This document shows positions 22,281-48,227 of a stretch of DNA of 64,000 nt, piece after piece. Position 1 is the stretch's first letter. Every line of letters starts with the position of its first letter. The stretch covers positions 27,264 to 91,263 of the forward strand of contig VGOE01000001.1 of NCBI GenBank assembly GCA_016876035.1, written 5' to 3'. The notes below the pieces were generated by a model. The model did no database searches, was not told the DNA's origin, and saw nothing but the letters and a program-made list of their open reading frames with translations. Both the position numbers and the translations under genes were made by a program. Source of the stretch: Chloroflexota bacterium. Its GTDB lineage: Bacteria > Chloroflexota > Dehalococcoidia > UBA2247 > RBG-13-53-26.

Positions 22281-22823
22281 TTGGCGAAAGATTTCGGGGC
22301 TGAGAACTTTGAAGCCATTTTCCGTGAACACAAGGATATGGTTTACAGAACTGCTTACCTCATACTGGGTGATGCTCACAGGGCAGAAGATGTTTTGCAA
22401 GAGGTTTTCGTCAGGGTTCACAAATCCCTGGATAGCTTCGACTCTCGAAAAGGGGCCTTCAGCACCTGGCTCCGCCGCATCACAGTCAATCAGTGCATTA
22501 CAGAGCGTCGCAATAGTCACTCGGCCTCCTTATCTTTATCTCTCGAGAGACTTGAAGAAGAAGGCCTTGACCCCGAGGATACCGATTCCGAGCGTCCTGA
22601 GGAGCTTGCCCTAAAGAGGGAAGAAGGCCAGAGGATACAACGAGCCATGAACACGCTGGACCGAAAGCATCGTGCCGTAGTCACTCTGAGGTATTTTGAG
22701 CAGCTTTCCTACGAGGAAATAGCGCAGGTACTGAGTATCCCATTAGGAACCGTGAAGTCGCGCCTGAACACGGCCATTCAAGCTTTGCGCCAGGAACTGG
22801 TGGAAGGGAGGTTCAGACCATGA
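22281..22823 (+). CDS. ECF (sigma-70 family) RNA polymerase sigma factor.
   Basis: Region 2 reads AEDVLQEVFVRVHKSLDSFDSRKGAFSTWLRRITVNQ. Region 4 reads LRYFEQLSYEEIAQVLSIPLGTVKSRL. The stop overlaps the next ATG (ATGA). Confidence 0.8.
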   Translation: MAKDFGAENFEAIFREHKDMVYRTAYLILGDAHRAEDVLQEVFVRVHKSLDSFDSRKGAFSTWLRRITVNQCITERRNSHSASLSLSLERLEEEGLDPEDTDSERPEELALKREEGQRIQRAMNTLDRKHRAVVTLRYFEQLSYEEIAQVLSIPLGTVKSRLNTAIQALRQELVEGRFRP

Positions 22824-23083
22824 ACTGCGAGAACGTCAATCAATCGCTTCTAAGTTATCTCGACAACGAGGTCAGCTTTGACCAAAAGGAGGCTATTGAG
22901 ACCCATCTGTGCGCTTGCAACGGCTGTAGAGAGGATCTGGGGATTCTTGTGGCATCATTGTCAATCAGCGCATTGCTCAGCGCTGCAACAGAGATTCGCC
23001 TGCCTTATCTCTTTAGGGGCTCAACAAAGAATGGTTCGACATGGCGGAAGCCGGTTCCGGAAACCTTGAGGAGCCTTCCGTAA
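22820..23083 (+). CDS. Truncated zf-HC2 anti-sigma factor fragment (N-terminal domain only, 87 aa). It is likely a remnant of a duplicated anti-sigma gene.
   Basis: NCENVNQSLLSYLDNEVSFDQKEAIETHLCACNGCREDLG parallels the N-terminus of the full anti-sigma at 23288. It has no TM or extracytoplasmic domain. Confidence 0.5.
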   Translation: MNCENVNQSLLSYLDNEVSFDQKEAIETHLCACNGCREDLGILVASLSISALLSAATEIRLPYLFRGSTKNGSTWRKPVPETLRSLP

Positions 23084-23089
23084 AGAAGG

Positions 23090-23287
23090 AAGAAAGCGAG
23101 TGGTACAGCAGACCATGAAGACCCTGAATCCGAAGCATCTCGCGGCAGTTGCTGTAAGTGCTTTGACGATCTTTCCTGCCATGAGATCCGGAAAGGGATT
23201 GAGCATGGCGCTGGTGACTGCTAAGTGCGGGCAACACACGGCCTTTCGGGTCTTGCGCCAGGAATCAATTGGAGGGAGGAGCGTGTC
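23090..23287 (+). pseudogene. Decayed copy of the 3' end (region 4) of the ECF sigma factor gene. It is a remnant of a tandem duplication of the sigma/anti-sigma unit.
   Basis: Nucleotide similarity to 22590-22823 is clear. For example ttgcgccaggaactggtggaagggagg...catgaactgc matches ttgcgccaggaatcaattggagggagg...catgaaatgc. MKTLNPKHLAAV parallels MNTLDRKHRAVV. The reading frame is not maintained. Confidence 0.55.
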
Positions 23288-25546
23288 ATGAAATGCAAAA
23301 AAGTAAATCAGTTGCTTGTAAGTTACCTCGACAACGAGGTCAGCTCTGAAGAAAGAGAAGCTATTCAAGCCCATCTGTCCGCCTGCAAAGGCTGTAGAGA
23401 GGAGATGGAGGCTCTTGCCGAGACTCAAAGAGAGCTTCGCCAAGGTCTTAGTGCGGTCGGGGCAGGGGCCTCCGCGCCATCCCATGCGTGGTCGGCGGTA
23501 AAGGAGAGGACAGAGGCACAAAAGAGGAGTGGCATGCCCGTTCTGGAGGCGCTGAGGTCGAGGGTGAGAAGCGGCATAGGGAGGCTAATGCCACGCCCCG
23601 TCTGGCAAAAAGCGCTGGCTTCCGTGCTCACCGTGGCCATAGTTGCTGGCCTGTGCCTGGGGATACCAGCTTTTTCCAAGCAGCAGGATAGCTTGGGTCC
23701 TGGGCCGTCACCGGGGTCCCCTCAGACACCAGTACAGAACGATTTGTGGCCCGAGCCATCGGTACAGTTCGCGCTGTCGCCCGAAACGGATGAGTTGCTG
23801 AAGTTCGCTTCTTACGAAGAGTTGAAGGAGTTCGTGGGTGATAATGCGGCGCCTTTCTATTACTATTACTCTCTTGAGGCGGGTGGGAGTGTTGTCGCCA
23901 GGATTGCGGGGGCTCCTGGGGCTCCTGCGCTTCTCGCTGTCACTGCCGCAAGCCCTGTTATCTACTCCATCACGAATATTCAGGTGGAGGGGGTGGACGA
24001 GGCAGACATCGTCAAGACAGATGGGGAGTTCATCTATCTGGTCTCAGGGACAAAGGTTTTCATCGTGAAGGCGTATCCTGCCAAGGAGACCCGAGTCCTG
24101 TCCAGAATAGAGCTGAAACAAGAACCGCGGGAGATTTTTATAAATGGGAACATGCTGGTCCTATTGGGGGACGCCTGGAAGTCCGAGGCGGTTGTCCCCA
24201 CGTACCAGACCTCCATCAAGATATACGATATCACGGACAGAGAGAATCCTGACCTGGTGAGGGATGTTTCGGTAGACGGCCAGTACTTCGGATCAAGAAT
24301 GATAGGCGACTACGCCTATGTGGTGGTACGCGCACCGGTATGCTACTACAAGGACGAGATAAGGCTTCCCGAGGTCTACCTGGGCAGTAAGGTCAGGGAA
24401 ATACCGGCCACGGACATCTACTACTTTGACGTCACAGATTCCCATTTTGGATTCACCACTATCCTGGCGGTGAACACACAGGACGCCGCCGAGGAGCCGT
24501 CGCGGGAGACGATAATACTAGGGGCCACCAGCAACTTGTATGTTTCCCTGAACAACATATACGTTACCGTCACAGACTGGAGATATTCGGGCAGCGGCTC
24601 TCAAAGCACCAGCATCCACAGGATTCATATAGACGAGGGCAACATAGCCTACAAGGCCAGTGGAGAGGTGCCGGGCACGGTGCTGAACCAGTTCTCCATG
24701 GACGAGTATCAGGGCTTCTTCAGGGTAGCTACCACTTCCTGGGAGCGGGCTGGAAGCAAGGAAATGGCGCTCTACCGAAGCCAAAACAACCTCTATGTCC
24801 TCGACGTGAACCTGGACATCGTTGGCAGGCTGGAGAACCTGGCGCCGGGAGAGACCATTTACTCGGCCAGATTCATGGGAGAGAGATGCTATCTGGTGAC
24901 CTTCAAGCAGGTTGACCCATTTTTCGTCATCAATTTGAAGGACCCTTACAATCCCGAGGTCCTTGGTGCCTTGAAGATAACCGGCTATTCCGACTACCTG
25001 CACCCCTACGACGAGAACCACATCATTGGAATAGGCAAGGAAACGGTGGCAGCGAAGGAGGGCGACTTCGCCTGGGCTCAGGGCGTCAAGATATCGCTCT
25101 TCGACGTCACTGATGTCAGCCACCCCAAGGAAGTGGCCAAGTACGAGATAGGCAAGCGGGGATCGGAATCGCCAGTCCTGCGGGATCACAAAGCACTTCT
25201 TTTTGATAGGGCTAAGAACCTTCTGGTGATGCCCGTCTCTGTGGTCGAGAGTGGCTCTAGCGACCCGTGGCAGGGTGCCTATGTATTCCACATATCCCCC
25301 TATGACGGAATTAAATACAGGGGCAGGATAACCCATTATGACGGGGATGAAGGCAAAATCCCCTCTCCTTTTTCTATACTTCCAGACAAGACATGGCGGA
25401 TATTGCCGGTGTATGAAGCAGACTCCTCCTACGCAGTGACCAGGTCTCTCTACATAGGGGATGTGCTTTACACCATCTCGGCCATGAAGATCAAAATGAA
25501 CAACCTGGAGAATCTGAAGCTGATCAATGAGGTAACAATCAAATAG
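23288..25546 (+). CDS. Anti-sigma factor. It has an N-terminal zf-HC2 domain, one TM helix and a large extracytoplasmic beta-propeller-type domain.
   Basis: MKCKKVNQLLVSYLDNEVSSEEREAIQAHLSACKGCREEM carries the zf-HC2 motif. The TM helix reads ALASVLTVAIVAGLCLGIPAF. The roughly 550-aa C-terminal region has a beta-strand-rich composition (YYYYSLEAGG...). The ORF-track entry extends upstream to 23225. Confidence 0.7.
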   Translation: MKCKKVNQLLVSYLDNEVSSEEREAIQAHLSACKGCREEMEALAETQRELRQGLSAVGAGASAPSHAWSAVKERTEAQKRSGMPVLEALRSRVRSGIGRLMPRPVWQKALASVLTVAIVAGLCLGIPAFSKQQDSLGPGPSPGSPQTPVQNDLWPEPSVQFALSPETDELLKFASYEELKEFVGDNAAPFYYYYSLEAGGSVVARIAGAPGAPALLAVTAASPVIYSITNIQVEGVDEADIVKTDGEFIYLVSGTKVFIVKAYPAKETRVLSRIELKQEPREIFINGNMLVLLGDAWKSEAVVPTYQTSIKIYDITDRENPDLVRDVSVDGQYFGSRMIGDYAYVVVRAPVCYYKDEIRLPEVYLGSKVREIPATDIYYFDVTDSHFGFTTILAVNTQDAAEEPSRETIILGATSNLYVSLNNIYVTVTDWRYSGSGSQSTSIHRIHIDEGNIAYKASGEVPGTVLNQFSMDEYQGFFRVATTSWERAGSKEMALYRSQNNLYVLDVNLDIVGRLENLAPGETIYSARFMGERCYLVTFKQVDPFFVINLKDPYNPEVLGALKITGYSDYLHPYDENHIIGIGKETVAAKEGDFAWAQGVKISLFDVTDVSHPKEVAKYEIGKRGSESPVLRDHKALLFDRAKNLLVMPVSVVESGSSDPWQGAYVFHISPYDGIKYRGRITHYDGDEGKIPSPFSILPDKTWRILPVYEADSSYAVTRSLYIGDVLYTISAMKIKMNNLENLKLINEVTIK

Positions 25547-25635: not shown

Positions 25636-25743
25636 GACCTAATAAGACAAGGCATGTGGGAGACATGACACACAGGACGATATTGGTATGGTACAATGAC
25701 GCTGAAAAAGGTGACGGGTGCAAGCTTTGACCGGAGTGATAGG

Positions 25744-26010
25744 ATGAAAACCTTCCAGGTAATTCGCAGTGGCATTGTTTTTGAGCTTCAGCCTGAACCT
25801 GAGGGTGGTTATACCATAACTGTCCCAGCTCTACCGGGATGCATCTCTTATGGGGGAAATTTCGAAGAGGCTATGGAAATGATAGAAGATGCCATCGAGG
25901 GCTGGCTGGCCGTAGCCAAAGAAGAAAACATCCCCATACCAGATCAGTTTGAATCTGTAGCGAGTAGGGTAGGTCGCGTGAAACGCGACCCAACATCGTG
26001 TAGAGCGTAG
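25744..26010 (+). CDS. hicB: HicB-like (UPF0150) antitoxin-family protein.
   Basis: MKTFQVIRSGIVFELQPEPEGGYTITVPALPGCISYGGNFEEAMEMIEDAIEGWL is a typical HicB N-terminal RNase-H-like fold signature. A GGAG RBS is present. No hicA was recognised nearby. Confidence 0.6.
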   Translation: MKTFQVIRSGIVFELQPEPEGGYTITVPALPGCISYGGNFEEAMEMIEDAIEGWLAVAKEENIPIPDQFESVASRVGRVKRDPTSCRA

Positions 26011-26109: not shown

Positions 26110-26154
26110 TGGTAGCGGGGGTTGGATTTGAACCAACGGCCTTCGGGTTATGGG
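26110..26154 (-). repeat. 45-nt copy of the 3' half of the tRNA-Met at 48153-48227 (CCA end through the anticodon loop). It is a putative attL direct repeat.
   Basis: 26110-26154 is identical to 48153-48197 (tggtagcgggggttggatttgaaccaacggccttcgggttatggg). The sequences diverge afterwards. Confidence 0.75.
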
Positions 26155-26369
26155 TCTGGTGAGTATTGTCACAAGGGGTTATTTTACGTTCAAGCTGGAC
26201 ATAATGCATCAGGAGGCAGAATGTCGTTTTGTTCGTAAAATGCCGACCAGTGATAACCCGTTTCATTCCGTTGGTTAGCTTTTTGTTAGCTATTTTCTAG
26301 CTACGTTTTGAGCGTGAGACGATTTTCGTGAGACCCGGTTTGAAATGGTTCGGAGATACACCAGGTCGG

Positions 26370-27558: not shown

Positions 27559-27830
27559 CTGTGAGTACTATAGACACGACTATTACGTCTGTCAAGATGT
27601 GGTTCTGCTCGGTTGGAGTTGGCAAAGGCGGAAGAACCAAGAAGCGTCTACTCTGCATGGAGCTTTAGGCCTCGCCTTTACCCTTGCCATTTAGACCACT
27701 CTACATAGTTAAGGGATTGGGAACCCTCTGTCCAACTGGGATCACATTGTAACTCAGAAGTTGCAAGCAAACTGTCCCCCGCGCTACAATTGACCCGTAG
27801 AGCTTTTAGCAGGCTGAGAAGGGGGTAACT

Positions 27831-28271
27831 ATGAGCCTTTTGGCAGCACTTTCAGGGAAGTCCACATCCGATGAAGAAATTCTAAGTCAACTCAACGAGG
27901 CGGTGATGCAGCTGCAGGCGGATGCTCTAGGCAAGTTGGACGCTTTCGCACTCGGTAAGAAGGAGATTGAACAGAGCCGGCAGAACGTGATTCAGCTTCT
28001 TGAAATTCTCCAGGAACTTCTGTCCCAGACCGGTGACCTGCAATTCGTCATTCCAGATACACCTCAGGAGAGCGCAGCAAAGGATATAGTGCTGAAGCTC
28101 GAATATCGAGGTAGGCCGAGGGCTGACTGGCTCGAGGATATTCACTCAGCCATATCAAACTTGCGTGATAGCAAACCGCTATCTGATTCCGACTGGGTTT
28201 TATTAGAAGACATCGTAGATATACTGGATACAGAGCTTGCCGAAGACTTGAGGGAACTCAGCCGACAGTAA
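27831..28271 (+). CDS. Hypothetical coiled-coil protein (146 aa). It is translationally coupled to the next gene.
   Basis: A TAATG stop/start overlap occurs at 28269-28273. The composition is Leu/Glu/Gln-rich heptad-like. Confidence 0.45.
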   Translation: MSLLAALSGKSTSDEEILSQLNEAVMQLQADALGKLDAFALGKKEIEQSRQNVIQLLEILQELLSQTGDLQFVIPDTPQESAAKDIVLKLEYRGRPRADWLEDIHSAISNLRDSKPLSDSDWVLLEDIVDILDTELAEDLRELSRQ

Positions 28272-29443
28272 TGCGAGCGTATCTGAGGGCAAAGTGCGCA
28301 CAACTAGAAATTGAACTGAATCGGTTACAGGACTACATTGGCCAACAAGAACGGGATGCAACGCATCCCGTTCTTGTTTCTGATTTGAAAGACCACCTCT
28401 GCCAAATGCAGCGGCTGTGCCGACGGTTGTCCGCGATTGCTGAGAATCCCGATGCTGCTTTGTTGAAACGTGCTCATATGTACCTGAGAGATTACGCCTA
28501 TCTTCAGACATCTCTCAGAGTATGGTATCTCCCCGCATGCTTTTATGAAACGGATACGGATCGGCAATTTGGCAGAATCATACGGCACCTGAATAGTAGG
28601 CTTGGTGTGACGCCAATGGAAGACCTTATCGTATCCCACGGGCGCTTTTTCACTACCTTCCCTGGGATACTGAGAGCACCCATTTTCTACGTTCCCTTTG
28701 CTCAGCACCAGAGTCTTGGAGATCTTCCCGCTCTGTACCACGAAGTTGGGCATATTGTCTATCAACATAATCCGCTCTTCGCAACCGAACTCCAGGCAGT
28801 CGTGATCACCCACTACAGCGAGCTTGCGAGAAGAACTTCCCCTATTCCCAGTGTTCAGCAAGAAGAGCGTTTGAAAGCCCTTTCTTGGTGCGTTCAGTAC
28901 TGGAATTGGAGGAAGGCTATCCGAATACAAGAGCTGTTCTGTGATATTTTTGCAGCCAATGTCGTTGGTCCAGCCTTCATTTTCTCGTGGATAGACTTAG
29001 TTATGCGCCAAGCTGGAGAGCCATATCAGTACTCTGAATGCGACGAACATCCCCCGGATGGGTTCAGGGCAACAACCTGCTTCCAGGCGCTCCCAGCAGC
29101 ATGTCGGGATGCGCCACTAGTGGAATGGATGCAACAGGTGTTCACTCAGTATGTCAGCGGGAAACTTCAGCGGAGAGATCCGGTTCCCTACGCCATGCTG
29201 TGTTCAACCGAGCTTATGGAGAAATTGGTGAATAAGGTCAGCGAGCATCTGGAAAGGATTGGGGTACCGGTCTATGCAGGCCCGATCCCTGATCAGTCTC
29301 AGGCACAAGACTTTGCTGATGTGCTCGATCTTGAGGGACTACTTAATGCAGCAGTGGTGAAGCTGTTGGCTGACCCAAACGGCTATAATAGCTGGGAGTC
29401 CGAAATGGTCAGAAGACTCTATGCAGCGCTCCCAACAGCCTAA
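28271..29443 (+). CDS. Putative zinc metallopeptidase with HExxH-x4-H (HEVGHIVYQH). The family is unassigned and could be ImmA/IrrE-like or SprT-like.
   Basis: The motif is LPALYHEVGHIVYQHNP. The protein is 390 aa. Confidence 0.45.
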   Translation: MRAYLRAKCAQLEIELNRLQDYIGQQERDATHPVLVSDLKDHLCQMQRLCRRLSAIAENPDAALLKRAHMYLRDYAYLQTSLRVWYLPACFYETDTDRQFGRIIRHLNSRLGVTPMEDLIVSHGRFFTTFPGILRAPIFYVPFAQHQSLGDLPALYHEVGHIVYQHNPLFATELQAVVITHYSELARRTSPIPSVQQEERLKALSWCVQYWNWRKAIRIQELFCDIFAANVVGPAFIFSWIDLVMRQAGEPYQYSECDEHPPDGFRATTCFQALPAACRDAPLVEWMQQVFTQYVSGKLQRRDPVPYAMLCSTELMEKLVNKVSEHLERIGVPVYAGPIPDQSQAQDFADVLDLEGLLNAAVVKLLADPNGYNSWESEMVRRLYAALPTA

Positions 29444-31704
29444 TCCTCGTCTTTGAGTAGCGTTTCCCGCAGAAGTTCATCATCCCATCGAACGGTTACA
29501 GGCATACTAATGTCAATATCTGGGGCATTCCAGTTGAATTGAGTAAGGCGGAATACATCCTCAGCAACATGTCGGATGTCAAAAGCTCCGCTAGTCTGGG
29601 CCACGCTGACTAGCAATGTTCGGGCAGTTTTCCCCTGCTCGTCCCATTTCTCAGGCTTTCCTGTAGTCGTGATGATAGCTCGTCCCTCATCTAAGATGAG
29701 GTAGCAACCGGGGAACGGGTTCTGAAAGGTTGTTAGGTCATTTGGAGGCCCTGCAACGCTAAATATGCGCACCGGCAGATGTGTCTTACGAAGTTCCACA
29801 ATGGCATGCCTTACTGACCCACCGATGATGCCCTCTGATCGTAGTCGATTTAGGGCATCTTCGATACCCTCACTCTCCTTTGGCCATATGCGCCCGTCCC
29901 GATGAAATATAATACTTTCGAGGTGGAATCCCTGAGTCGCTATTTGCTTAACTGATGAAAGGAGTTCGTCTCGGATTCTCCTGGTCTTGATCGCTTCTTT
30001 TCCACCGCTACTACCTGTCCTCCGTCGCATCTCTCGGCCCCCCTTACCAAACAGGTATGTATAGACGACTCGTGAATCTTGAACGTCTATGCCAACATAT
30101 AGGTCCTGGTGAAGGAGATCAGCAAGAACCCAAGGCTTGCTTCCTGTTGCGATCAAAACACCAAGGGCTAGGTTGCGCAACTTGGATCTGTTAACGCAAA
30201 CCTCCTGGACATTCCCTTCATGAATACACTGAGAGAATACCGACCTGCATGTCTCTTTGAGGAGGGGATGGACCTGGCTGACGGCCTCTGACGGTAGTAC
30301 GCAAACCAGAAGAGCCCTCCGATGATCCCTCACAAGTGTTTCTGCCTCCGAGATCAGATTGCGTCCCTCTAGGTCAGGGGCGTAGGGAATCTGTCGCGAG
30401 AAGCTAAGATCCAGGCCAGATTGAAGCTTGACTTCAGTTACCAGCCTCTGCACAAATTCCTCTCTCAGCCGCCTGCTAAGCGTATTAGGGCAAAGCAGAA
30501 ATGCGACAGGGAGTGGCTCGGTGTGAAAGGGATGGCGCTCATAAAGAGCCTTAATCTTTGCAGGGCCCCAGTGGCGGATAGGATACGGCTCATTGGTGCG
30601 CTTTTGGAGGGCATCTATTCTGATGATGTGACCCTGACCAAATTCGAGCCCCGGCACTTGAAAGAAAGAGCCATCTATATGTAACGGCTCAAAGGACAAA
30701 TCTAGCGGAACATCCCCATAACAGACTTGCCCCAAGTCTTGAAGGAATTCAGATATTAGCTTCATCCGCACTTGCGGACTTAGCTGTGGGGGAATCGAGC
30801 ATTGTCGCAGGCCAATATGCTCTGTGGTAAATCTGGGGAAAAGGCGACTGACTGGGACAGGGAAGGGAGCCGTGCCACGCTCCTTATCCTGTACATAATA
30901 CACTGCCTCTTCATCAGGACTGAGGCTGCTACTGATCTGGGGGTACCGCCTGCGATAATACTCCAGCACTGTTTCGTTCAATTCCTCTAGCCAGAACTCC
31001 GCTATCGTTTGGCCTGTATCTCCAGCGTAAAAGCACCCAAACTTCACAGGCCCGTTGTCTCTTAAGAAGGCTCTTCTATGCTCCATCCGAACATCGCAGT
31101 GCTCGCGTAGCTGTTCCTCAAGCCCACGATCTCTATAGTCAAGCAAGGAGAGGCGGGATACATAGCGTGTCGCAACATCCACAGCAAGAAATAATCTTCC
31201 GCCTCGGATGGAAGTCACCCCAAAAGAGAACCCACGATATGCGTTTATGATGTCGGAAGCTTTGTCCTGATTATCCGGCGACACACGGAAAAATCGAGTC
31301 CAGGTGTCGCGCCAATAGTTAGGCTGATTTCGAAGTGTATCTGAAAAGGCGCGCTCCACCATGCTAGCGACAAACTCCAGATCTGCCCCGCTTGCTACTC
31401 GAAGGTCTACAGAAATGATCTCATCCGTGGGATCAACGTGGTAGGTCATATGAGGCACATCTTTGAAAGTGAGATCAGCATTAGTCATGTCGACGTCGGC
31501 TGGCATGATGAAATACGCGTCGGTGTCTCGTGACCGTGGAAAGACAGGGCACTTGAGGCGCCTCCTCCACATCTCATCTGCCCATTTCTGGACACGGACT
31601 GGTCTATAGTTATCATCAGGTAGCCGTTCTCGAACTTTGAGTAACCTGTACCTAAAATCGAGCTGCTGGGAATTTCGTATTTCGAACAGGGTGTATGCTA
31701 GCAC
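29440..31704 (-). CDS. Long prokaryotic Argonaute (pAgo) with a PIWI domain.
   Basis: PIWI-domain signatures are present. RALLVCVLPSE...ETCRSVFSQCI...NLALGVLIATGSKPWVL...LYVGIDVQD holds the first catalytic Asp in GIDV. IIFHRDGRI is the RDG motif. C-terminal AFDIRHVAEDVFRL parallels the YYAHLAAFRAR region with His. The length is 754 aa. The start overlaps the stop of the upstream nuclease gene. Confidence 0.7.
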   Translation of the reverse strand: MLAYTLFEIRNSQQLDFRYRLLKVRERLPDDNYRPVRVQKWADEMWRRRLKCPVFPRSRDTDAYFIMPADVDMTNADLTFKDVPHMTYHVDPTDEIISVDLRVASGADLEFVASMVERAFSDTLRNQPNYWRDTWTRFFRVSPDNQDKASDIINAYRGFSFGVTSIRGGRLFLAVDVATRYVSRLSLLDYRDRGLEEQLREHCDVRMEHRRAFLRDNGPVKFGCFYAGDTGQTIAEFWLEELNETVLEYYRRRYPQISSSLSPDEEAVYYVQDKERGTAPFPVPVSRLFPRFTTEHIGLRQCSIPPQLSPQVRMKLISEFLQDLGQVCYGDVPLDLSFEPLHIDGSFFQVPGLEFGQGHIIRIDALQKRTNEPYPIRHWGPAKIKALYERHPFHTEPLPVAFLLCPNTLSRRLREEFVQRLVTEVKLQSGLDLSFSRQIPYAPDLEGRNLISEAETLVRDHRRALLVCVLPSEAVSQVHPLLKETCRSVFSQCIHEGNVQEVCVNRSKLRNLALGVLIATGSKPWVLADLLHQDLYVGIDVQDSRVVYTYLFGKGGREMRRRTGSSGGKEAIKTRRIRDELLSSVKQIATQGFHLESIIFHRDGRIWPKESEGIEDALNRLRSEGIIGGSVRHAIVELRKTHLPVRIFSVAGPPNDLTTFQNPFPGCYLILDEGRAIITTTGKPEKWDEQGKTARTLLVSVAQTSGAFDIRHVAEDVFRLTQFNWNAPDIDISMPVTVRWDDELLRETLLKDED

Positions 31705-31705
31705 C

Positions 31706-32641
31706 TCACCACTCCCTGCATATTCGCTGAAATGGGCAACGCTCGCAAATCTTCACATGCCGGGCATAGCTAAAATCCCGAATATCTGCCACGCCTGTAT
31801 CAGGATCAACCATGAGTGCGCTAATGTTTTCTACGCTTCTCCTGATAACTGCTAACCGGTTCCACTTAGCTTCGGGGTCCAACGTAAAAGCTTCAACCTG
31901 CGGAGTCTCCAAGTTAACGGCATACGCTGTGGTGTCCCTAAGCTCAATACTCAAAGCCAGGTGTGGCCAAAGAAGGTAGCACTCCATTTGCCCCGAATAA
32001 CTTCGTGCATCAGACTTCCCAGTCTTCCAGTCATAGATCGCAAATCGGCCATCGCTGTTTCGCACAGCAAGATCTACCTTAACTGTGACCTTTGTAGTCT
32101 CGAAGTCAAATGCTGTAGCCCCTGGCCCAAATGTCGGGGGCTCAATCCAAACCCGGTTAGCGGTGGCTAGAATCTGCGGAATCCTCAGGGTGTCCCGAAT
32201 GTCACCGAAATTGTCCAAGCAGGTTCTGATCGTAGTTAGTATCCTGCTGAAAGTATCAAGCGGTAGCTGGATTCCATATTCATGCTCAAAGATAGCACCA
32301 AACTCCTCTCCTGCTCTCGTTGGCGCAACTTGGCGGTAGAGTTTCCTCTCAGAAAAATTCCACTGGCGCTCTGCGAGGTCCGCAGCCTTTTCTCGAAGGT
32401 CTTCCACCGACCAACGATGCCCGTTTGCCAGTTCCTTCAGCGACTTTGCAACAGTGGTATGCAAAAGGTCACCGACCCACGCCGAGAGTGTTTTTAGTTG
32501 CCGCAGAATCGCCACCTCTTTCAACAAAGGCTTCCTTGAATTGCGACGCGCTCCAGCCAAGTAATGAAAGAATAGCTGTCGCTCGCAGACTTCTAGCAGG
32601 TTGCCTTTCGAATACGACCATGATCGCTTTGTCGAGTCCAT
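31706..32641 (-). CDS. Cas4/AddB-like PD-(D/E)xK nuclease with a 4-Cys iron-sulfur cluster motif. The start is taken at the internal Met because the longer ORF overlaps the upstream gene.
   Basis: The PD-(D/E)xK core is VKVDLAV...GRFAIYDWKTGK. C-terminal CERCPFQRIC (C-x2-C-x5-C) plus an N-terminal Cys (EVCERQ) match the Cas4/AddB Fe-S arrangement. It lies immediately upstream of pAgo. Confidence 0.7.
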   Translation of the reverse strand: MDSTKRSWSYSKGNLLEVCERQLFFHYLAGARRNSRKPLLKEVAILRQLKTLSAWVGDLLHTTVAKSLKELANGHRWSVEDLREKAADLAERQWNFSERKLYRQVAPTRAGEEFGAIFEHEYGIQLPLDTFSRILTTIRTCLDNFGDIRDTLRIPQILATANRVWIEPPTFGPGATAFDFETTKVTVKVDLAVRNSDGRFAIYDWKTGKSDARSYSGQMECYLLWPHLALSIELRDTTAYAVNLETPQVEAFTLDPEAKWNRLAVIRRSVENISALMVDPDTGVADIRDFSYARHVKICERCPFQRICREW

Positions 32642-32654
32642 AACGCTTGCTGTC

Positions 32655-33044
32655 TTACGGAATATTGAAGGGACTGTAGAAATGTCCCACGCCCTGCGGC
32701 TCCAGGCGGTTGCCGAACAGGGGCCGCAGGCGAATCTCCTGGTTGCGCCAGTACATCTTGGGCTCCACATCCATAGTCAGCTTGTCCACGGGCAAGAGAA
32801 CGACCGGACTGCGGCGCAAGAGCCTCTCACCAGCCTCATAGAGGATATCGTGGAGTGGCTTCAAGTCACTCATTGTTGCCATGATTCGGTCCAGCCCTGC
32901 AACCTTAACTCGCCTGGGCAAAGTGTCCCTGGCTTGAAGACGTTGAAGGAACTGAACAATGCTCATTACTTCTGAGTCATCCTCGTAGCGCTGGCCAATA
33001 AGCCCCCTTTCCACCAGGTTGTAGCCGGCCTTCAATCCTTCCAT
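32655..33044 (-). CDS. Hypothetical protein (129 aa) within the defence operon.
   Basis: It lies 10 nt downstream of the methyltransferase stop and on the same strand. Confidence 0.4.
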   Translation of the reverse strand: MEGLKAGYNLVERGLIGQRYEDDSEVMSIVQFLQRLQARDTLPRRVKVAGLDRIMATMSDLKPLHDILYEAGERLLRRSPVVLLPVDKLTMDVEPKMYWRNQEIRLRPLFGNRLEPQGVGHFYSPFNIP

Positions 33045-33054
33045 AATACGCCCT

Positions 33055-35685
33055 CTACATTAGCCTCCGCTTCCCAGCTCCCAGCGCCTCGGCATGCTCC
33101 CGCAGGCGGTCATAGACCTTCACCCCGGTCTTCTTGTAAAGTAGGTCCAGCACCTGCACTAGGCCATCTCGCCGCCACCGCTCCAGCTCAGGTCGGATGT
33201 CCAGCCCGCTCTCCAGGACAGCATACAGGTAGTGGGCAATATCTATGAGAGGAAGAGGGTGTCCCCGCTCTATCTCTTTCTCTATGAACTCCAGGCGTTT
33301 TGAGGGAGTCATGGGCGCTATGGTCCGCCCTTTGCGCTCCTCAAGATACTGGCGGCGGTTGAACTCCTCCAGACTGAAGCCTCCCCCGGTAGTGAATCGC
33401 TTGCGCAAGTCGTCCCAAGTCAACCCCCTCTCCCCGGCAATGTAAAGAAGGTAGAGTTGGGTGGTTTCATCCAGGCCAGCGGGCAGTAGCTTCAGTTCGT
33501 AGGACTTGATGAGGAAGTCTACCATCCCCTCAATCTCGTCCACGGCGGTATCCACGTCCACGGGCTGGCCACCCCGCATGACATTGGGCCAGTGCCTCGA
33601 ATAGACCTCCAGGCAGCGCCCCATGGCAATGACGAAGAGGTCCGCGTCGCTGATGCGCCGCCCTGAGCGGCGGATGGCTCCCACTGTCTCCTCAACTTTG
33701 GCATGAATCTCGTCCTTGAGACTTTCCCAGGCAACCCGCCTTGGCTCCTCCAAGCGCTTGCGGCATACGAAGGGAATGTCATACGCGATGCCACCAGTTT
33801 TCAAGAGATGCGTGGAGGTCTTCATCTCGGCATGAACAGGGTAGACAGCCGAGACATAGAAGCCTGCCTCCACGATGCTCCGTAGGACAGATTTCCAGGC
33901 CCAAGGTTCCTTATGGTGGAAGGTGAAGACAAATGGCCCATCATCCTTCAGCACCCGGTGAGATTCCTTGAACACCCGAGTGAGTCCCCCGAAGAAGAAG
34001 TCCTCCGCATCCTTCTCTGCCTGCCCGGGCTTCTTGCTGGTGTTATGACGGGCAGTGTTCTTTACGATCTCCCTAGCCCTCGGTGATACCTCCGTTTCAA
34101 ACCAGGGATACTGCTCCTTAAGCCCCAGCTTGAGCCAAACATAGAAGAAGTCAGCCAGCTCCGAGTACATCACATTGTCACAATAGGGCGGGTCTGTGAT
34201 GACGGCGTCCATCGAATTGTCAGCCAGGAAAGCCATGTCTTCAGAAGTATCAGCCCCGAGTGCCACTTGACGTTTATCGCCTGCGAGCCGAAATTGGCTA
34301 ACTTGGCTCAGGGGTAACACCCGGTCAACTGTGCCACTTTCTCCCAATTTCAGGCGGGCTGCTTTCCCGCCCCTGATAGTAATCTCATACGGTGAAACAC
34401 TGTAAGTCTTGGCTGCTCTAACTTTCTGCCAAGTGCCTGCAAATGAATTTCCCCCACCCCTTGTGCCCCATATATTGCTCTCAACGGGCATGTTCGTCGG
34501 CCAGTAAGCATGGCGAGAAAATAATGGCATGATTTGGTAACTATCCGCCCTATACCGACAGAACATGTTGCTGAAATCTGTGAACTCTGATAGCGCCAGC
34601 AACCCAAGTTCCCTTACATTCTGATCCTCTATTCTTAGAATCTCCTTCAGCAGCAGGGAGAGACACAGGAGCTGCCGCTCGTTGAACATTTGGTGGAAGT
34701 ATTTGTAGCCGTAGTTGATAGGCCGGGGATCGCTGCGCCCTTCATTGGGAATCTTGGCGCGCGGGAAGAGCAGCCCGTCCTTCAGCCGCTGAAACTCTGC
34801 TCTGGCCTCTTCGTATAAAGCCTTATCGCTGCCCGTGACCCCTTTATAACCTCGGCGGCATGCGGGGCAGTAATACTCCAGGGCGAACATCTCGGCCTCG
34901 GGCGGGCCCTCCCGCCTCTGGATAGCCTTGAGAATGTTCTCCTTCTGCCCGCAGGCGGGGCAGGTGTATTTCCCACCCCCGGCGTATCCCTCTTCCGGCA
35001 CGTATTCCATACCACACTCGGAACATTCCACAGGGCTGTCCAGGGAATCAACATTGCTCTTGATGTGATAACAATGGGGGCAAAAGACGATATGCTTGCT
35101 ACTCTTGATGGCGATGCGGAAGGAAGGAAAGAGCTTTACCTCTTCGCCACAAGCCAGACAGGGCACCTTCTTCACCCAGAAGGCATACATGATGTCAGCC
35201 TCATGGCCTTGAGGACAAGTAGTGCGGTAGTAGCGCTTGAGCCGGGGGGCGATAGTTCTCTCCAGGTGCTTGAAGGCAGCGTCCAGGGCATCAAACTCTA
35301 CCGGGTCTATCTCCTTCTTGGTGACGAACCAGGCCACCGGATTGAGATCGATGCCGACCACCTTGCACCCCAGGCGCAGGGACTCCACCACCGTGGTGCC
35401 TCCGCCCATAAAGGGGTCCAGGATGATGGGTAGCTTGCCCTCTTTGTTCTTAAGCTCGTTCTTGGAGTAGAAGCGGCTCCACAGGCGGCGCTGGTTCTCC
35501 TCCGGGGAAAGAGAGTCGTCCCACTCGGCGAAGGCAGCCAGGATAAGCATGCGGAAGACACTGCCCAGGCGCCTGGCCCACCACTTGTGAATCATATATA
35601 TAGGGCGCCTCATACCTAAGCCTGTTTCAGCAGTGGCGACCTCGTTTAAGGCTTCTATGGGCAGGTCACGCTCTATGTAGCGCAT
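33055..35685 (-). CDS. DNA methyltransferase with a DUF1156-type N-terminus (amino-methyltransferase, DPPY motif) and inserted zinc-ribbon clusters.
   Basis: The N-terminal reads IHKWWARRLGSVFRMLILAA (DUF1156 WWARR signature). The SAM motif is ILDPFMGGGTTVVE. The catalytic motif IV is VITDPPYCDNVMYSE. Multiple CxxC pairs are present. The protein is 876 aa. Confidence 0.8.
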   Translation of the reverse strand: MRYIERDLPIEALNEVATAETGLGMRRPIYMIHKWWARRLGSVFRMLILAAFAEWDDSLSPEENQRRLWSRFYSKNELKNKEGKLPIILDPFMGGGTTVVESLRLGCKVVGIDLNPVAWFVTKKEIDPVEFDALDAAFKHLERTIAPRLKRYYRTTCPQGHEADIMYAFWVKKVPCLACGEEVKLFPSFRIAIKSSKHIVFCPHCYHIKSNVDSLDSPVECSECGMEYVPEEGYAGGGKYTCPACGQKENILKAIQRREGPPEAEMFALEYYCPACRRGYKGVTGSDKALYEEARAEFQRLKDGLLFPRAKIPNEGRSDPRPINYGYKYFHQMFNERQLLCLSLLLKEILRIEDQNVRELGLLALSEFTDFSNMFCRYRADSYQIMPLFSRHAYWPTNMPVESNIWGTRGGGNSFAGTWQKVRAAKTYSVSPYEITIRGGKAARLKLGESGTVDRVLPLSQVSQFRLAGDKRQVALGADTSEDMAFLADNSMDAVITDPPYCDNVMYSELADFFYVWLKLGLKEQYPWFETEVSPRAREIVKNTARHNTSKKPGQAEKDAEDFFFGGLTRVFKESHRVLKDDGPFVFTFHHKEPWAWKSVLRSIVEAGFYVSAVYPVHAEMKTSTHLLKTGGIAYDIPFVCRKRLEEPRRVAWESLKDEIHAKVEETVGAIRRSGRRISDADLFVIAMGRCLEVYSRHWPNVMRGGQPVDVDTAVDEIEGMVDFLIKSYELKLLPAGLDETTQLYLLYIAGERGLTWDDLRKRFTTGGGFSLEEFNRRQYLEERKGRTIAPMTPSKRLEFIEKEIERGHPLPLIDIAHYLYAVLESGLDIRPELERWRRDGLVQVLDLLYKKTGVKVYDRLREHAEALGAGKRRLM

Positions 35686-35694
35686 GGCGACTTC

Positions 35695-36030
35695 TCACTT
35701 CTTCGTTGGCGGGTGGAAATGTGTCTCAGAGCGAAGGGACGTTGGAAAATCACATTTCCCACACCAGAGGTCCCGATCAAGATTTTTGTGGCGTGTCCAT
35801 CCATGGTGGTCTTCAAGCGTTCTCTGAACCTGACGCTGCCAATTGCCGCCTTTGTGGAGAATGTTGGCAGGCACAAGCGAACCAAATTCCGGATAGACAA
35901 CGGGGTTGTTGCTCGCTGCAAGCTGTTGAGCGCAGTTCAGAACCGCTGAGTCACAGGCAGGGCAAAGGGGCCATGGCCAACTGCTATAGTCGGGCTTCGT
36001 ATGGTTAGAATTCCAACTGCATGAGCGCAT
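35695..36030 (-). CDS. Hypothetical zinc-ribbon protein (111 aa, 4 Cys) in the defence operon.
   Basis: Two Cys pairs are present (CPACDSAV...CGKCDF). It lies 9 nt upstream of the methyltransferase start. Confidence 0.35.
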   Translation of the reverse strand: MRSCSWNSNHTKPDYSSWPWPLCPACDSAVLNCAQQLAASNNPVVYPEFGSLVPANILHKGGNWQRQVQRTLEDHHGWTRHKNLDRDLWCGKCDFPTSLRSETHFHPPTKK

Positions 36031-36061
36031 TTTACTTCCCTCGCAACATTCAGCTTCCCCT

Positions 36062-36289
36062 TCATCTCCTGCAGAGAGACAAACTCCCCTTCTTGCCCTC
36101 GGCCCAGGCTTTACGGGACCTCTTTACCTGGTGCGCCAGTTCCTCGCCGCCCAGGATCTCCGCCGTTGCCTCCCACTCATCCCTCTCCCTGAGGTAGGCG
36201 GCAAAGTCAGCCACCGCCTTAACCCTGTCCTCTGAAAGGGACTTGACCTCTTCCAGTAACTTGCCCTTGTAGCCACCAGCCTTAGCCAC
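36062..36289 (-). CDS. Small hypothetical protein (75 aa, GTG start) in the defence operon.
   Basis: A GTG start is preceded by AGAGGGGGTGA. It lies 6 nt after the PglZ-domain gene stop. Confidence 0.4.
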   Translation of the reverse strand: MAKAGGYKGKLLEEVKSLSEDRVKAVADFAAYLRERDEWEATAEILGGEELAHQVKRSRKAWAEGKKGSLSLCRR

Positions 36290-36295
36290 GATTCA

Positions 36296-37243
36296 TCACC
36301 CCCTCTTTAGCCTTATCACAGGTACCAGACACTCCATGAGTGAAATGCCGCCATGTGCCACATCCGACTGCTTGCCAGGGGCACTCCAGTAGTAGCGCCC
36401 CCGGACATAGCACCCCTTATCATCGAACAGAACATAGGTATGGTCTTTGGGAAGAGCACGCAGCACCTCAAACTCTCCGGCATTCGGGCCATCGAATGTG
36501 ATCCCCCGCTGGGCACCAAAGAGCTTCAGAAGCACCTTGCGATTGGAGACGGGGGCGTGCCAGAAAAGGGCAGCGGACTGGGCATATACATAGCCATGGT
36601 CAGAGGTGAGCACCACCTCCTTCGTTTCCAGCATGTTTAGAATCTTGAGCAGAGCCTCCTCCGTCCGTTGCAAAGCAAAGGAAGGGGTAACCCCCTTGCC
36701 TTTCATGGGATGCATCAGTTCGTCTGGAAAGGAAAGCCATACCAACGCCTTTGGTCCCTGCAGGAAGATCGGAACATCGCCCGACCTGATGGAGCGGAAG
36801 GTGAATCCCTGCCACTTCTTGGGCATAGCTGCCGCTCCTGCTACTCCGAAGACATCACGGAAGAAAGCCCGTGTCGTCGATGGCACCCCTGAGTAGGCAT
36901 AGGAGTATTGTGCAGGGTCGAAGCCCTTTTCTTTGAGCCGGGGCATTAGCCAGTTGGCCTCTCTGAGGGAGAGGCCGTCCAGCACAACGATGGACGCCTC
37001 CAGGCAACTGAACTCGGCTGTCCTGTTCTGGGATCTGGCCCGCTCCAACAGCAAATCGTAGAGTTCAAAGTAGGTATCCCTTATGAACTCCTCCAGATTA
37101 TTGGTCTCGCGCTCTTGCTGGACATAGAAAGCATCCACATCGCCTGAGTCACCTGATGTCCATATATCATTTAGAGCCTTGAACAAAGGGCCGACAGGAT
37201 CGTCCTGGGTGAGAAGCTGTGTGACAAGGCTATTCAGATTCAT
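36296..37243 (-). CDS. Stand-alone PglZ-domain protein (alkaline-phosphatase superfamily fold).
   Basis: Motifs IVVLDGLSLRE, GVPSTTRAFF and VVLTSDHGYVY resemble the PglZ/BrxZ metal-binding and catalytic Ser/Thr signatures. The start overlaps the ATPase stop by 14 nt. Confidence 0.6.
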   Translation of the reverse strand: MNLNSLVTQLLTQDDPVGPLFKALNDIWTSGDSGDVDAFYVQQERETNNLEEFIRDTYFELYDLLLERARSQNRTAEFSCLEASIVVLDGLSLREANWLMPRLKEKGFDPAQYSYAYSGVPSTTRAFFRDVFGVAGAAAMPKKWQGFTFRSIRSGDVPIFLQGPKALVWLSFPDELMHPMKGKGVTPSFALQRTEEALLKILNMLETKEVVLTSDHGYVYAQSAALFWHAPVSNRKVLLKLFGAQRGITFDGPNAGEFEVLRALPKDHTYVLFDDKGCYVRGRYYWSAPGKQSDVAHGGISLMECLVPVIRLKRG

Positions 37244-42359: not shown

Positions 42360-43040
42360 CTACCACCCAAAGTCCACCCCTTGTTGTACCCGCAGAGATT
42401 CCTCAGCTTGCAGGGTCTTGAAATACCTTAGTGTCATCCTGGCTGTTGTGTGCCGGAGCTGGTCCTGGACAGCCTTCGGATTGCCAGTCACCCTCAGTCT
42501 TTCTATAGCCCCGCTATGCCTCAGGATATGCACGGCCCCCACATGGTCGGGCTTAGTGACTCCGGCTTTAGCCATGGCTGCGTCAACAATCTGAAAGGCC
42601 CTGGTTCGGGTTATGGGAAAGAACTGCTCTTCGATATTGAGGCCGTGGCGGTAGGCATAGGCTTGCAGTTGCGCTGCAAGGCTAGATGATATGGCTGCTA
42701 TCCCGGGTTTCTTACCCTTACCGAAGATCTCCAGGTGCCAGCCGGTAGGATCCTGCTTTATATCCCTCGGCCTGACCCTTAATGCCTCGCTGATCCGCAG
42801 ACAAGCGTCAAAGAGTGTCTGTACCAACAGCCTGTCACGATCCTGGTGTCTGCCAGAACTGCCGGCGGCCTCAGCTATGGCCGTCACCTCAGCCAACCCC
42901 AGGTGCGGTACATAACCACTCTCAGCCACCTGTGCCCTGACAATTGCTTGCCTCTGAGCACTTTTGTTTAGCCTTGGAAGCCTTGGGGTCACCGCCACCA
43001 GGTTTGTTGACGACTGTGGTCTATCGCCACTGGCTGTCAT
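42360..43040 (-). CDS. Small tyrosine recombinase of the phage-integrase family (resolvase or Xer-like).
   Basis: The C-terminal catalytic region reads HILRHSGAIERL...LRHTTARMTLRYF (HxxR...Y). The protein is 226 aa. Confidence 0.65.
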   Translation of the reverse strand: MTASGDRPQSSTNLVAVTPRLPRLNKSAQRQAIVRAQVAESGYVPHLGLAEVTAIAEAAGSSGRHQDRDRLLVQTLFDACLRISEALRVRPRDIKQDPTGWHLEIFGKGKKPGIAAISSSLAAQLQAYAYRHGLNIEEQFFPITRTRAFQIVDAAMAKAGVTKPDHVGAVHILRHSGAIERLRVTGNPKAVQDQLRHTTARMTLRYFKTLQAEESLRVQQGVDFGW

Positions 43041-48152: not shown

Positions 48153-48227
48153 TGGTAGCGGGGGTTGGATTTGAACCAACGGCCTTCGGGTTATGGGCCC
48201 GACGAGCTACCACTGCTCCACCCCGCG
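48153..48227 (-). tRNA. tRNA-Met (anticodon CAU), initiator-type.
   Basis: The RNA reads CGCGGGGTGGAGCAGTGGTAGCTCGTCGGGCCCATAACCCGAAGGCCGTTGGTTCAAATCCAACCCCCGCTACCA. Positions 1:72 are mismatched (C:U). Three G:C pairs close the anticodon stem. The anticodon loop is CCCAUAA. A CCA end is encoded. Confidence 0.85.

What the first reader, a model, noticed from the sequence alone, without database searches (positions are those of the whole stretch)
29440..32641. Long pAgo with candidate slicer residues paired with a Cas4/AddB-type iron-sulfur nuclease
The Argonaute carries the PIWI hallmarks GIDV (first catalytic Asp) and HRDG (second Asp). It also has a His in the C-terminal AFDIRHVAED segment that aligns with the YYAH region, which is compatible with a catalytically active DEDH/DEDD-type site. 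The adjacent nuclease has the PD-(D/E)xK core (VKVDLAV...IYDWKTGK). It also has the C-x2-C-x5-C plus N-terminal Cys arrangement diagnostic of Cas4/AddB Fe-S nucleases. Such nucleases are proposed to generate or process guides for pAgos. The nuclease stop and pAgo start overlap.
Basis: partly seen in the sequence, partly recalled or inferred. Interest (0 to 1): 0.75.

Follow-up and report, generated by a model that had tools for sequence, protein, structure and literature searches.

The report
RNA-cutting Argonaute defence operon, four genes
This is a bacterial Argonaute defence module: a probably active, probably DNA-guided RNA-cutting Argonaute with a Cas4-like iron-sulfur nuclease, a pairing already described, plus two conserved partner genes that no paper I could search names.

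Summary
Both ORFs are real. The 754-aa protein (29440-31704, minus strand) is a full-length long pAgo, about 39% identical to VbAgo, a characterised DNA-guided RNA-cleaving Argonaute. Its catalytic tetrad is intact: D540, E570, D603 and D742. The fourth residue lies in VRWDDELL.

The 311-aa protein (31706-32641, minus strand) has every Cas4-family motif tested. Its nearest solved relatives are the Argonaute-associated nucleases ACE1. The two genes abut (TGA-G-GTG) and do not overlap.

An active RNA-targeting pAgo preceded by a Cas4-like nuclease was described in 2022, so the pair is a new member of a known kind.

The module is really four genes. A 146-aa acidic protein (27831-28271) and a 390-aa protein with invariant HExxH…E…D (28271-29443) accompany the nuclease and pAgo in every complete relative, in three gene orders, in bacteria and archaea. 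They match no curated family or solved fold, and the papers I could search do not mention them.

The module sits on a ~22-kb island integrated at tRNA-Met.

The parts
31706..32641 (-). Cas4-family PD-(D/E)xK nuclease, 311 aa. Key residues: N-terminal C19; D190 (VKVDLA); D204-W-K206 (DWKTGK); Q218...Y222; C299-x2-C302-x5-C308.
   Evidence: Pfam PDDEXK_1, 2.2e-15. PADLOC Aga_Cas4-like_Nuc, 3.4e-33, full length. All nine residues are invariant in 8 sequences and present in 22-24 of 24 locus copies. A family profile hits the ACE1 structures 9iac and 9iab (E = 4.6e-7 and 8.1e-6), then the AdnB nuclease domain.
29440..31704 (-). Long pAgo, 754 aa, GTG start. DEDD tetrad: D540, E570, D603, D742. MID 5'-end pocket: H479, K483, Q492, N498, N511, A519.
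   Evidence: phmmer against PDB: VbAgo 3.9e-156 (residues 2-749 against 6-763), MbpAgo 9wmd 2.3e-29, PliAgo 7r8f 3.7e-21, CbAgo 7.8e-5 (9WMD identified). About 39% identity to VbAgo. D540, D603 and D742 are invariant and E570 is at least 90% conserved in 22 family members. PADLOC pAgo_II, 4.7e-70.
27831..28271 (+). Conserved 146-aa acidic protein (pI 4.3), here called 'small'. Its stop overlaps the start of the next gene (TAATG). No known family.
   Evidence: No hit in Pfam, PADLOC or PHROGs, and only a far-sub-threshold chance match in NCBIfam (YidC model, E = 0.048, 12.4 bits against a 479-bit cut-off). 26-53% identical homologues sit at the equivalent position in the other loci. Distant homology to the 121-137-aa genes at the same position in PliAgo-type operons (hhalign probability 91.5%). 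pI.
28271..29443 (+). Conserved 390-aa HExxH protein, here called 'mid'. Invariant residues: H157, E158, H161, E221, D225, G233, P261, R266; H260 nearly invariant. It has an N-terminal three-helix bundle and a C-terminal predicted metal-enzyme domain. It is convergent with the pAgo gene, and the two ORFs overlap by 4 nt at their stops.
   Evidence: No curated family matches. 282 cluster representatives at E <= 1e-3, nearly all about 380 aa. Invariant residues come from 68 sequences. AlphaFold2 model with alignment: pLDDT 96.7. No significant solved or viral structural match. Only sub-threshold Pfam M48, M78 and reprolysin hits in 6 of 68 members.
27761..27790 (+). Promoter-like site (TTGCAA-18-TACAAT) 40 nt upstream of the 146-aa gene. 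It is a candidate promoter for the small-mid pair.
   Evidence: Consensus scan only. The number of sites found does not exceed the number in shuffled sequence, so this is weak evidence.

Best explanation
The locus is a member of the DNA-guided, RNA-targeting ('D-R') pAgo defence operons, of the VbAgo subgroup. It is carried as cargo on a ~22-kb island integrated at tRNA-Met.

Proposed mechanism:
1. The Cas4-family iron-sulfur nuclease, translated just ahead of the pAgo, makes or trims short 5'-phosphorylated single-stranded DNA from invading or replicating DNA, and probably binds the pAgo. This step is inferred from ACE1.
2. The pAgo anchors the guide 5' end in its MID pocket (H479/K483/Q492/N511), pairs it with complementary transcripts and cuts them with the D540/E570/D603/D742 site. 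The fourth Asp sits on a mobile C-terminal segment. This step is inferred from VbAgo biochemistry and structures. The residues are shown here; the activity is not.
3. Two further conserved genes, for a small acidic protein and an HExxH...E metal enzyme (most likely a zincin-type peptidase), belong to the same inherited unit. They probably regulate or extend the response. Their linkage is shown here; their role is unknown.
For: - Full-length homology to VbAgo (3.9e-156). The next-best solved relatives are the other two characterised RNA-cutting pAgos, MbpAgo and PliAgo; DNA-cutting pAgos are far weaker.
- VbAgo cleaves RNA with DNA guides, its D550A/D617A mutant is dead, and D756 enters the active site (PMC10448046, PMC13219720).
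- The tetrad is conserved in 22-23 of 23 relatives.
- The nuclease has all Cas4-family motifs and is a distant homologue of ACE1, which trims pAgo guide DNAs and forms a heterodimer with its pAgo (PMC12094033).
- Lisitskaya et al. 2022 reported that every D-R pAgo is preceded by a Cas4-like PD-(D/E)XK nuclease (PMC9360449).
- The four-gene core is present in all complete loci found with the pAgo as bait.
- With the HExxH protein as bait, 3 of 3 look-ups landed in pAgo operons, as did 18 of 22 metagenome loci with enough flank.
- Three different gene orders are seen.
- Pairwise identities of pAgo, nuclease and HExxH protein correlate at r = 0.94-0.97 over 23 loci.
- The setting is a defence island: an adjacent DUF499/PglZ/DUF1156-methylase system, an integrase, and tRNA-Met att repeats.
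Against: - No activity was measured. 39% identity to VbAgo does not fix guide or target preference.
- The MID pocket starts with His where VbAgo has Tyr, and the autoinhibitory C-terminal tail is about 14 residues shorter than in VbAgo.
- The nuclease is only distantly related to ACE1, and the ACE paper warns that ACE1 conclusions may not transfer to other clades.
- In RsAgo, the co-encoded nuclease is not needed for guide biogenesis (PMC11162769).
- The HExxH protein matches no curated peptidase family and no solved fold.
- In this window the small-mid pair is convergent with the pAgo rather than co-transcribed with it.
Confidence: 0.65

Rival explanations
1. DNA interference of the APACE1 or CbAgo type. 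The pAgo uses DNA guides to cut invader DNA rather than RNA, and the nuclease supplies or trims the guides.
For: The nuclease's nearest solved relatives are the ACE1 proteins of the DNA-targeting APACE1 systems. MaAgo cuts both DNA and RNA. PnyAgo shows weak DNA cleavage.
Against: The pAgo itself is much closer to the three RNA-specific pAgos (E = 1e-156, 1e-29 and 1e-21) than to DNA-cutting pAgos such as CbAgo (7.8e-5). VbAgo does not cut DNA at 37 C.
Confidence: 0.2
2. Effector model. The pAgo senses invader transcripts, and the Cas4-like nuclease then degrades the invader's DNA (or cellular DNA). The nuclease acts downstream of recognition rather than as a guide maker.
For: Lisitskaya et al. 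raise this as an alternative for D-R pAgos. Long-B pAgo nuclease systems (BPAN) work through a PD-(D/E)XK effector. Cutting RNA alone would not remove a plasmid.
Against: BPAN pAgos have lost the tetrad, whereas this one keeps it. The PDB profile search with the nuclease family returned only ACE1 and AdnAB nuclease domains. The only Cas4-family Argonaute partner studied so far trims guides.
Confidence: 0.25
3. Inactive long-B pAgo with a nuclease effector (BPAN-like abortive infection). This is the outcome the first reader named as refuting.
For: PADLOC files both proteins under its 'Class II' pAgo and Cas4-like nuclease models. Nuclease partners are typical of inactive pAgos.
Against: All four tetrad residues are present and conserved. 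EcAgo of BPAN has G and Q at tetrad positions 1 and 3. The nearest homologue is an active enzyme.
Confidence: 0.03
4. The small acidic protein and the HExxH protein form an independent two-gene cassette (for example a separate defence, toxin-antitoxin or regulatory unit). On this view they only travel with pAgo operons and are not part of the mechanism.
For: Here they are on the opposite strand with their own promoter-like site. A distant paralogous pair occurs without a pAgo, next to a dCTP-deaminase-like gene, in L098, L108, L111 and L114.
Against: All close family members with enough flanking sequence are next to a nuclease and/or pAgo, in three gene orders and in both bacteria and archaea. 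Divergence is tightly correlated with that of the pAgo and nuclease. The position is kept even in PliAgo-type operons whose pAgo is only 21-31% identical.
Confidence: 0.15

Closest known systems
VbAgo (Verrucomicrobia pAgo; PDB 9v65 and related entries; PMC10448046, PMC13219720)
   Same: Full-length homologue (E = 3.9e-156, about 39% identity). Same DEDD tetrad positions, including the fourth Asp on the C-terminal segment. The K/Q/N/A residues of the MID pocket are the same.
   Different: First MID-pocket residue is His, not Tyr; T503 corresponds to N498. The acidic tail after the last catalytic Asp is 12 residues here against 26 in VbAgo. VbAgo was studied as a stand-alone enzyme; the text passages I retrieved from those papers do not mention its partner genes.
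D-R pAgo operons of the PliAgo and PnyAgo/MbpAgo groups (Lisitskaya et al. 2022, PMC9360449)
   Same: An active DEDD pAgo directly preceded by a Cas4-like PD-(D/E)XK nuclease, spread by horizontal transfer. PliAgo-type operons found here also carry the small and HExxH genes.
   Different: This locus belongs to a third subgroup, the VbAgo type. It has no adjacent HTH regulator or sigma factor. Its small-HExxH pair is inverted relative to the pAgo. The published text names only the nuclease, the regulator and the sigma factor.
APACE1 (long-A pAgo plus ACE1; PMC12094033) and the uncharacterised APACE2/ACE2
   Same: A Cas4-family partner with D-DxK and 1+3 cysteines encoded in an operon with an active pAgo. 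ACE1 is the nearest solved relative of the nuclease. The nuclease's length (311 aa) is close to the ACE2 mean of 313 aa.
   Different: Homology to ACE1 is detectable only by profile (E about 1e-6), and only over the C-terminal half. APACE1 pAgos cut DNA. APACE1 is described as two genes. Membership of the ACE2 clade could not be tested.
BPAN (long-B pAgo plus the bAgaN nuclease; PMC10620215, PMC13535254)
   Same: A long pAgo with a co-encoded PD-(D/E)XK-superfamily nuclease.
   Different: BPAN pAgos lack the tetrad (EcAgo has G492 and Q568), and the nuclease is an abortive-infection effector. Here the tetrad is intact.

Membership tests
Slicer-competent long pAgo | Full N-L1-PAZ-L2-MID-PIWI architecture | tested here: met
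   Residues 2-749 align end to end with VbAgo residues 6-763, whose domains are mapped structurally. The Pfam Piwi hit is only sub-threshold (23.9 bits against a cut-off of 28.9).
Slicer-competent long pAgo | DEDX catalytic tetrad | tested here: met
   D540, E570, D603 and D742 align with VbAgo D550, E584, D617 and D756. They are invariant or nearly so in the family.
Slicer-competent long pAgo | MID pocket for the guide 5' end ([Y/K/R/H]-K-Q-type motif) | tested here: met
   H479, K483, Q492 and N511 correspond to VbAgo Y484, K488, Q497 and N521. His is one of the first residues accepted in the standard motif.
DNA-guided RNA-cleaving (D-R) pAgos | Closest sequence relatives are D-R pAgos | tested here: met
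   The top three solved relatives are VbAgo, MbpAgo and PliAgo.
DNA-guided RNA-cleaving (D-R) pAgos | Operon with an upstream Cas4-like PD-(D/E)XK nuclease | tested here: met
   The nuclease ends 1 nt before the pAgo start. The feature is described in PMC9360449.
DNA-guided RNA-cleaving (D-R) pAgos | DNA guide and RNA target specificity | not testable with these tools
   This needs in vitro cleavage assays.
Cas4 family / Argonaute-associated Cas4 enzymes (ACE) | PD-(D/E)xK core: D...D-x-K, plus QxxxY | tested here: met
   D190, D204, K206, Q218 and Y222 are invariant.
Cas4 family / Argonaute-associated Cas4 enzymes (ACE) | One N-terminal and three C-terminal cysteines (the iron staple) | tested here: met
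   C19 and C299-x2-C302-x5-C308, present in 22-23 of 24 relatives.
Cas4 family / Argonaute-associated Cas4 enzymes (ACE) | An Fe-S cluster is actually bound | not testable with these tools
   This needs spectroscopy of purified protein.
Cas4 family / Argonaute-associated Cas4 enzymes (ACE) | Placement in the ACE1 or ACE2 clade | tested here: inconclusive
   A profile hit to the ACE1 structures (E = 4.6e-7) covers only the C-terminal half; the single sequence finds nothing. No ACE2 sequences were available for a tree.
Long-B pAgo / BPAN | Catalytic tetrad lost | tested here: not met
   The tetrad is complete. EcAgo serves as the comparison.
Zincin (gluzincin) metallopeptidase, for the 390-aa protein | HExxH on a helix preceded by a small beta-sheet | tested here: met
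   H157-E-x-x-H161 is invariant in 68 sequences. In the model, strands at 120-141 precede helix 153-166.
Zincin (gluzincin) metallopeptidase, for the 390-aa protein | Third metal ligand (Glu) on a later helix | tested here: inconclusive
   E221 and D225 are invariant and lie on helix 213-232.
Zincin (gluzincin) metallopeptidase, for the 390-aa protein | Significant match to a curated peptidase family or a solved zincin fold | tested here: not met

The most novel reading that the evidence does not exclude
RNA-targeting pAgo systems may be obligate four-component machines. In this reading, a previously unannotated HExxH metal enzyme (a putative protease) and its small acidic partner form a signalling or activation arm coupled to Argonaute. 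The enzyme might cleave the small protein, a regulator, or the pAgo's autoinhibitory C-terminus once a target is recognised. The same two-gene arm would be re-used with a dCTP-deaminase-like effector in pAgo-less cassettes.
Probability: 0.15. Interest if true: 0.8.

Novelty: new member of a known kind. Interest (0 to 1): 0.5.

Why it matters
It does add a divergent (about 39% identical) relative of VbAgo, an enzyme studied as an RNA-cleavage tool.

The in vivo role of DNA-guided RNA-cutting pAgos is still open: how they obtain guides, and how cutting RNA stops an invader. The studied enzymes were characterised alone. A nuclease, a small acidic protein and an HExxH enzyme are inherited with the pAgo as one unit across bacteria and archaea. 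That gives concrete candidates for the missing steps and a reason to test the whole operon rather than the pAgo alone.

Tried and rejected
- Inactive long-B/BPAN reading: rejected, because the tetrad is intact.
- 8xih/9wmd as long-B structures: rejected. 9WMD is MbpAgo, an active RNA-cutting pAgo.
- DUF8076 gene (32655-33044) as part of the pAgo module: rejected. It is absent from the closest relative's locus and unlike the gene next to the L032 methylase.
- HTH regulator as a core component: rejected. It is present only in some subgroups and absent next to the window module.
- Single-sequence AlphaFold2 of the 390-aa protein: useless (pLDDT 43.6). It was redone with a 68-sequence alignment.
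- Word-indexed homologue search for the 390-aa protein: found only one hit. The exhaustive search found 282.
- Literature searches linking pAgo with a metalloprotease, zincin or HExxH: nothing found.
- The 16-bp palindrome inside the 390-aa gene as a conserved element: not conserved in homologues.
Full report
**1. What is at the coordinates**

The minus strand carries two abutting ORFs:
- 31706-32641, 311 aa, ATG start. The frame stays open up to 32770, but homologues of 310-317 aa that cover 99% of the protein support the ATG at 32641.
- 29440-31704, 754 aa, GTG start.

The junction reads TGG TGA G GTG. The genes are therefore separated by one nucleotide and do not overlap. A GGGAG motif lies 7 nt upstream of the GTG. 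In relatives the two genes overlap by 4-23 nt.

**2. The Argonaute**

*Nearest relatives.* Against all PDB sequences the best match is VbAgo (E = 3.9e-156), with residues 2-749 aligned to 6-763 and about 39% identity. Next come MbpAgo (9wmd/8xih, about 2e-29; 9WMD identified) and PliAgo (7r8f, 3.7e-21). DNA-cutting pAgos such as CbAgo reach only 7.8e-5.

VbAgo, MbpAgo and PliAgo are the characterised DNA-guided RNA-cleaving pAgos (PMC10448046, PMC13346755, PMC9360449).

*Catalytic tetrad.* VbAgo's tetrad is D550/E584/D617/D756. The D550A/D617A double mutant is inactive, and D756 swings into the site on a C-terminal loop-to-helix switch. These positions align with D540 (GIDV), E570 (GGKE), D603 (HRDG) and D742 (VRWDDELL) of the window protein.
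- In a 22-member family alignment, D540, D603 and D742 are invariant and E570 is at least 90% conserved.
- In 23 locus copies the counts are 22, 23, 23 and 23.

The site is therefore DEDD.

*Other features.* The MID pocket is H479/K483/Q492/N498/N511/A519, against Y484/K488/Q497/T503/N521/A529 in VbAgo. The acidic tail after the last catalytic Asp is 12 residues here, against 26 in VbAgo, where residues 764-782 are purely autoinhibitory.

**3. The nuclease**

- It matches Pfam PDDEXK_1 (2.2e-15) and the PADLOC model Aga_Cas4-like_Nuc over its full length (3.4e-33).
- Invariant residues are C19, D190, D204, K206, Q218, Y222, C299, C302 and C308. This is the RecB/Cas4 D...DxK...QxxxY core plus the 1+3 cysteine 'iron staple'.
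- The single sequence finds no solved structure.
- A family profile finds the two ACE1 structures 9iac and 9iab (4.6e-7 and 8.1e-6), and then AdnB nuclease domains.

ACE1 is a ssDNA endonuclease that forms a heterodimer with its pAgo and trims guide DNAs (PMC12094033). Whether the window protein belongs to the uncharacterised ACE2 clade (mean length 313 aa) could not be tested.

**4. What is already known**

Lisitskaya et al. 2022 reported that both groups of D-R pAgos sit in operons of constant composition, in which the pAgo is preceded by a Cas4-like PD-(D/E)XK nuclease. A helix-turn-helix regulator accompanies one group and a sigma-70 factor the other. PADLOC already models this pairing. 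The finding as written is therefore a new member of a known kind.

**5. The unit is four genes**

*pAgo as bait.* Contigs carrying the same or related pAgos always carry two more genes: one of about 121-147 aa and one of about 373-390 aa.

Profiles of the four proteins recover the full set in every complete locus from 19 reference genomes. The hosts are Nitrosotalea, Thermodesulfobacteriota, Microcoleus, Okeania, Chloroflexi, Bifidobacteriaceae, Hermodarchaeota and Methanobacteriaceae.

Three gene orders occur:
- HTH-small-mid-nuclease-pAgo;
- nuclease-pAgo-small-mid;
- in the window and its closest relative, nuclease-pAgo convergent with small-mid.

*Distant pAgos.* PliAgo-type loci (L028, L029, L032; E = 1e-144 to 1e-207 to 7r8f) and an intermediate lineage (L034) keep the HExxH gene in the same place. 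L030 (pAgo only 21% identical to the window's) keeps it too, although its pAgo was not compared with PliAgo. Their small gene is a distant homologue of the window's (hhalign probability 91.5%).

*HExxH protein as bait.*
- 3 of 3 look-ups landed in such operons.
- In a metagenome scan, 18 of 22 loci with at least 1.5 kb on both sides have a pAgo alongside.
- No close family member with enough flanking sequence lacks a nuclease or pAgo.

*Co-inheritance.* Pairwise identities of pAgo, nuclease and HExxH protein correlate at r = 0.94-0.97 over 23 loci.

**6. The two extra proteins**

*Small protein (27831-28271).* It is acidic (pI 4.3) and has no meaningful match in any library; the one hit is a chance-level NCBIfam match at E = 0.048. 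Its stop overlaps the next start (TAATG).

*HExxH protein (28271-29443).*
- It has no curated family.
- An exhaustive search finds 282 cluster representatives, nearly all about 380 aa.
- H157, E158, H161, E221, D225, G233, P261 and R266 are invariant in 68 sequences.
- AlphaFold2 with that alignment gives pLDDT 96.7. The model has a three-helix bundle (1-91), then short strands (120-141), then the HExxH helix (153-166), and later the E221/D225 helix (213-232). This order is typical of zincins.
- Pfam gives only sub-threshold M48, M78 and reprolysin hits.

I read it as a metal-dependent enzyme, most likely a peptidase. This is inference: non-peptidase HExxH enzymes exist (PMC12636437).

**7. 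Mechanism**

*Shown here:*
- the gene set and its co-inheritance;
- the conserved catalytic residues of all three enzymes.

*Inferred:*
- The nuclease supplies or trims 5'-P DNA guides (from ACE1).
- The pAgo slices complementary RNA at position 10/11 (from VbAgo).
- The small and HExxH proteins regulate or extend the response.

*Rivals:* DNA rather than RNA targeting; the nuclease as a downstream DNA-degrading effector; the small-HExxH pair as an independent cassette. A proteolytic switch acting on the small protein, on a regulator, or on the pAgo's autoinhibitory tail is speculation, and is recorded as the novel case.

**8. Context**

The last 54 nt of tRNA-Met (48153-48206) are repeated at 26110-26163. 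The ~22 kb between the repeats holds:
- an integrase (42360-43040);
- DUF3987 and DUF3854 genes;
- a DUF499 ATPase, a PglZ-like protein and a DUF1156-type methylase (PADLOC HmaC/HmaB-like);
- the pAgo module.

The module is thus cargo of an integrated mobile element that acts as a defence island.

**9. Verdict**

The pair is a new member of the known class of RNA-targeting pAgo plus Cas4-like nuclease operons. The conserved small-acidic and HExxH partners are the part that merits follow-up. I found them mentioned neither in the pAgo papers whose text I searched nor through library-wide searches.

Noticed in passing
window 26110-26163 and 48153-48206 (tRNA-Met at 48153-48227, minus strand); integrase at 42360-43040: The 3' 54 nt of tRNA-Met are directly repeated 22 kb away (93% identity). 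The repeats bracket an integrase, DUF3987/DUF3854 genes, a methylase/ATPase system and the pAgo module. This looks like an integrated mobile island with att sites.
   Followed up: partly
window 33055-39821 (minus strand); also L032 9892-17149: A DUF499 ATPase (863 aa), a PglZ-like protein (315 aa) and a DUF1156-type methylase (876 aa; PADLOC HmaB 6e-45, HmaC 8e-19) lie directly upstream of and co-directional with the nuclease-pAgo genes. No helicase gene was noticed among the ORFs listed. A DUF1156 plus DUF499 set also flanks a PliAgo-type operon in L032.
   Followed up: partly
L098 889-3414, L108 3784-6263, L111 2609-5257, L114 6094-8445: A distant paralogous cassette without a pAgo: a small protein (145-194 aa), then an HExxH protein (408-469 aa) that keeps all nine signature residues, then a dCTP-deaminase-like protein (PF22769). 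None of the eight proteins scanned, from all four loci, hits PADLOC.
   Followed up: partly
window 28344-28378: A perfect 16-bp inverted repeat with a 3-nt loop lies inside the coding region of the 390-aa gene, followed by a T-rich stretch. RNA fold -29.5 kcal/mol, z = -4.8. It is unique in the window and absent from homologous genes.
   Followed up: yes
L008 249-2895, L010 832-2885, L011 1170-3889, L033 3432-5541, L034 1-827: Genes of Bil-type ubiquitin-like conjugation systems (BilA_UBL_2, BilD_N, ThiF, Prok-E2_E) sit divergently right next to the pAgo operon in five unrelated loci. No such genes were noticed near the module in the window.
   Followed up: no
L024 and L027 (cyanobacterial and Methanobacteriaceae MAGs): The pAgo is broken into several ORF fragments in both loci; the nuclease is also fragmented in L024 and the HExxH gene in L027. 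These are apparent pseudogenes or assembly frameshifts.
   Followed up: no
L107 5180-7732: A 355-aa protein with a sub-threshold Piwi-domain match (E = 1.5e-6, 28.1 bits against a 28.9-bit cut-off) is followed by a 116-aa gene and a 381-aa HExxH protein. This may be a shortened version of the module.
   Followed up: no
window 25696-26010, 11078-11123, and 22726-22949 / 23194-23417: A HicB-like antitoxin gene lies just outside the island's left repeat. There is a 21-bp perfect palindrome at 11078-11123. A 224-nt direct repeat (72% identity) lies upstream of the beta-propeller/anti-sigma gene.
   Followed up: no
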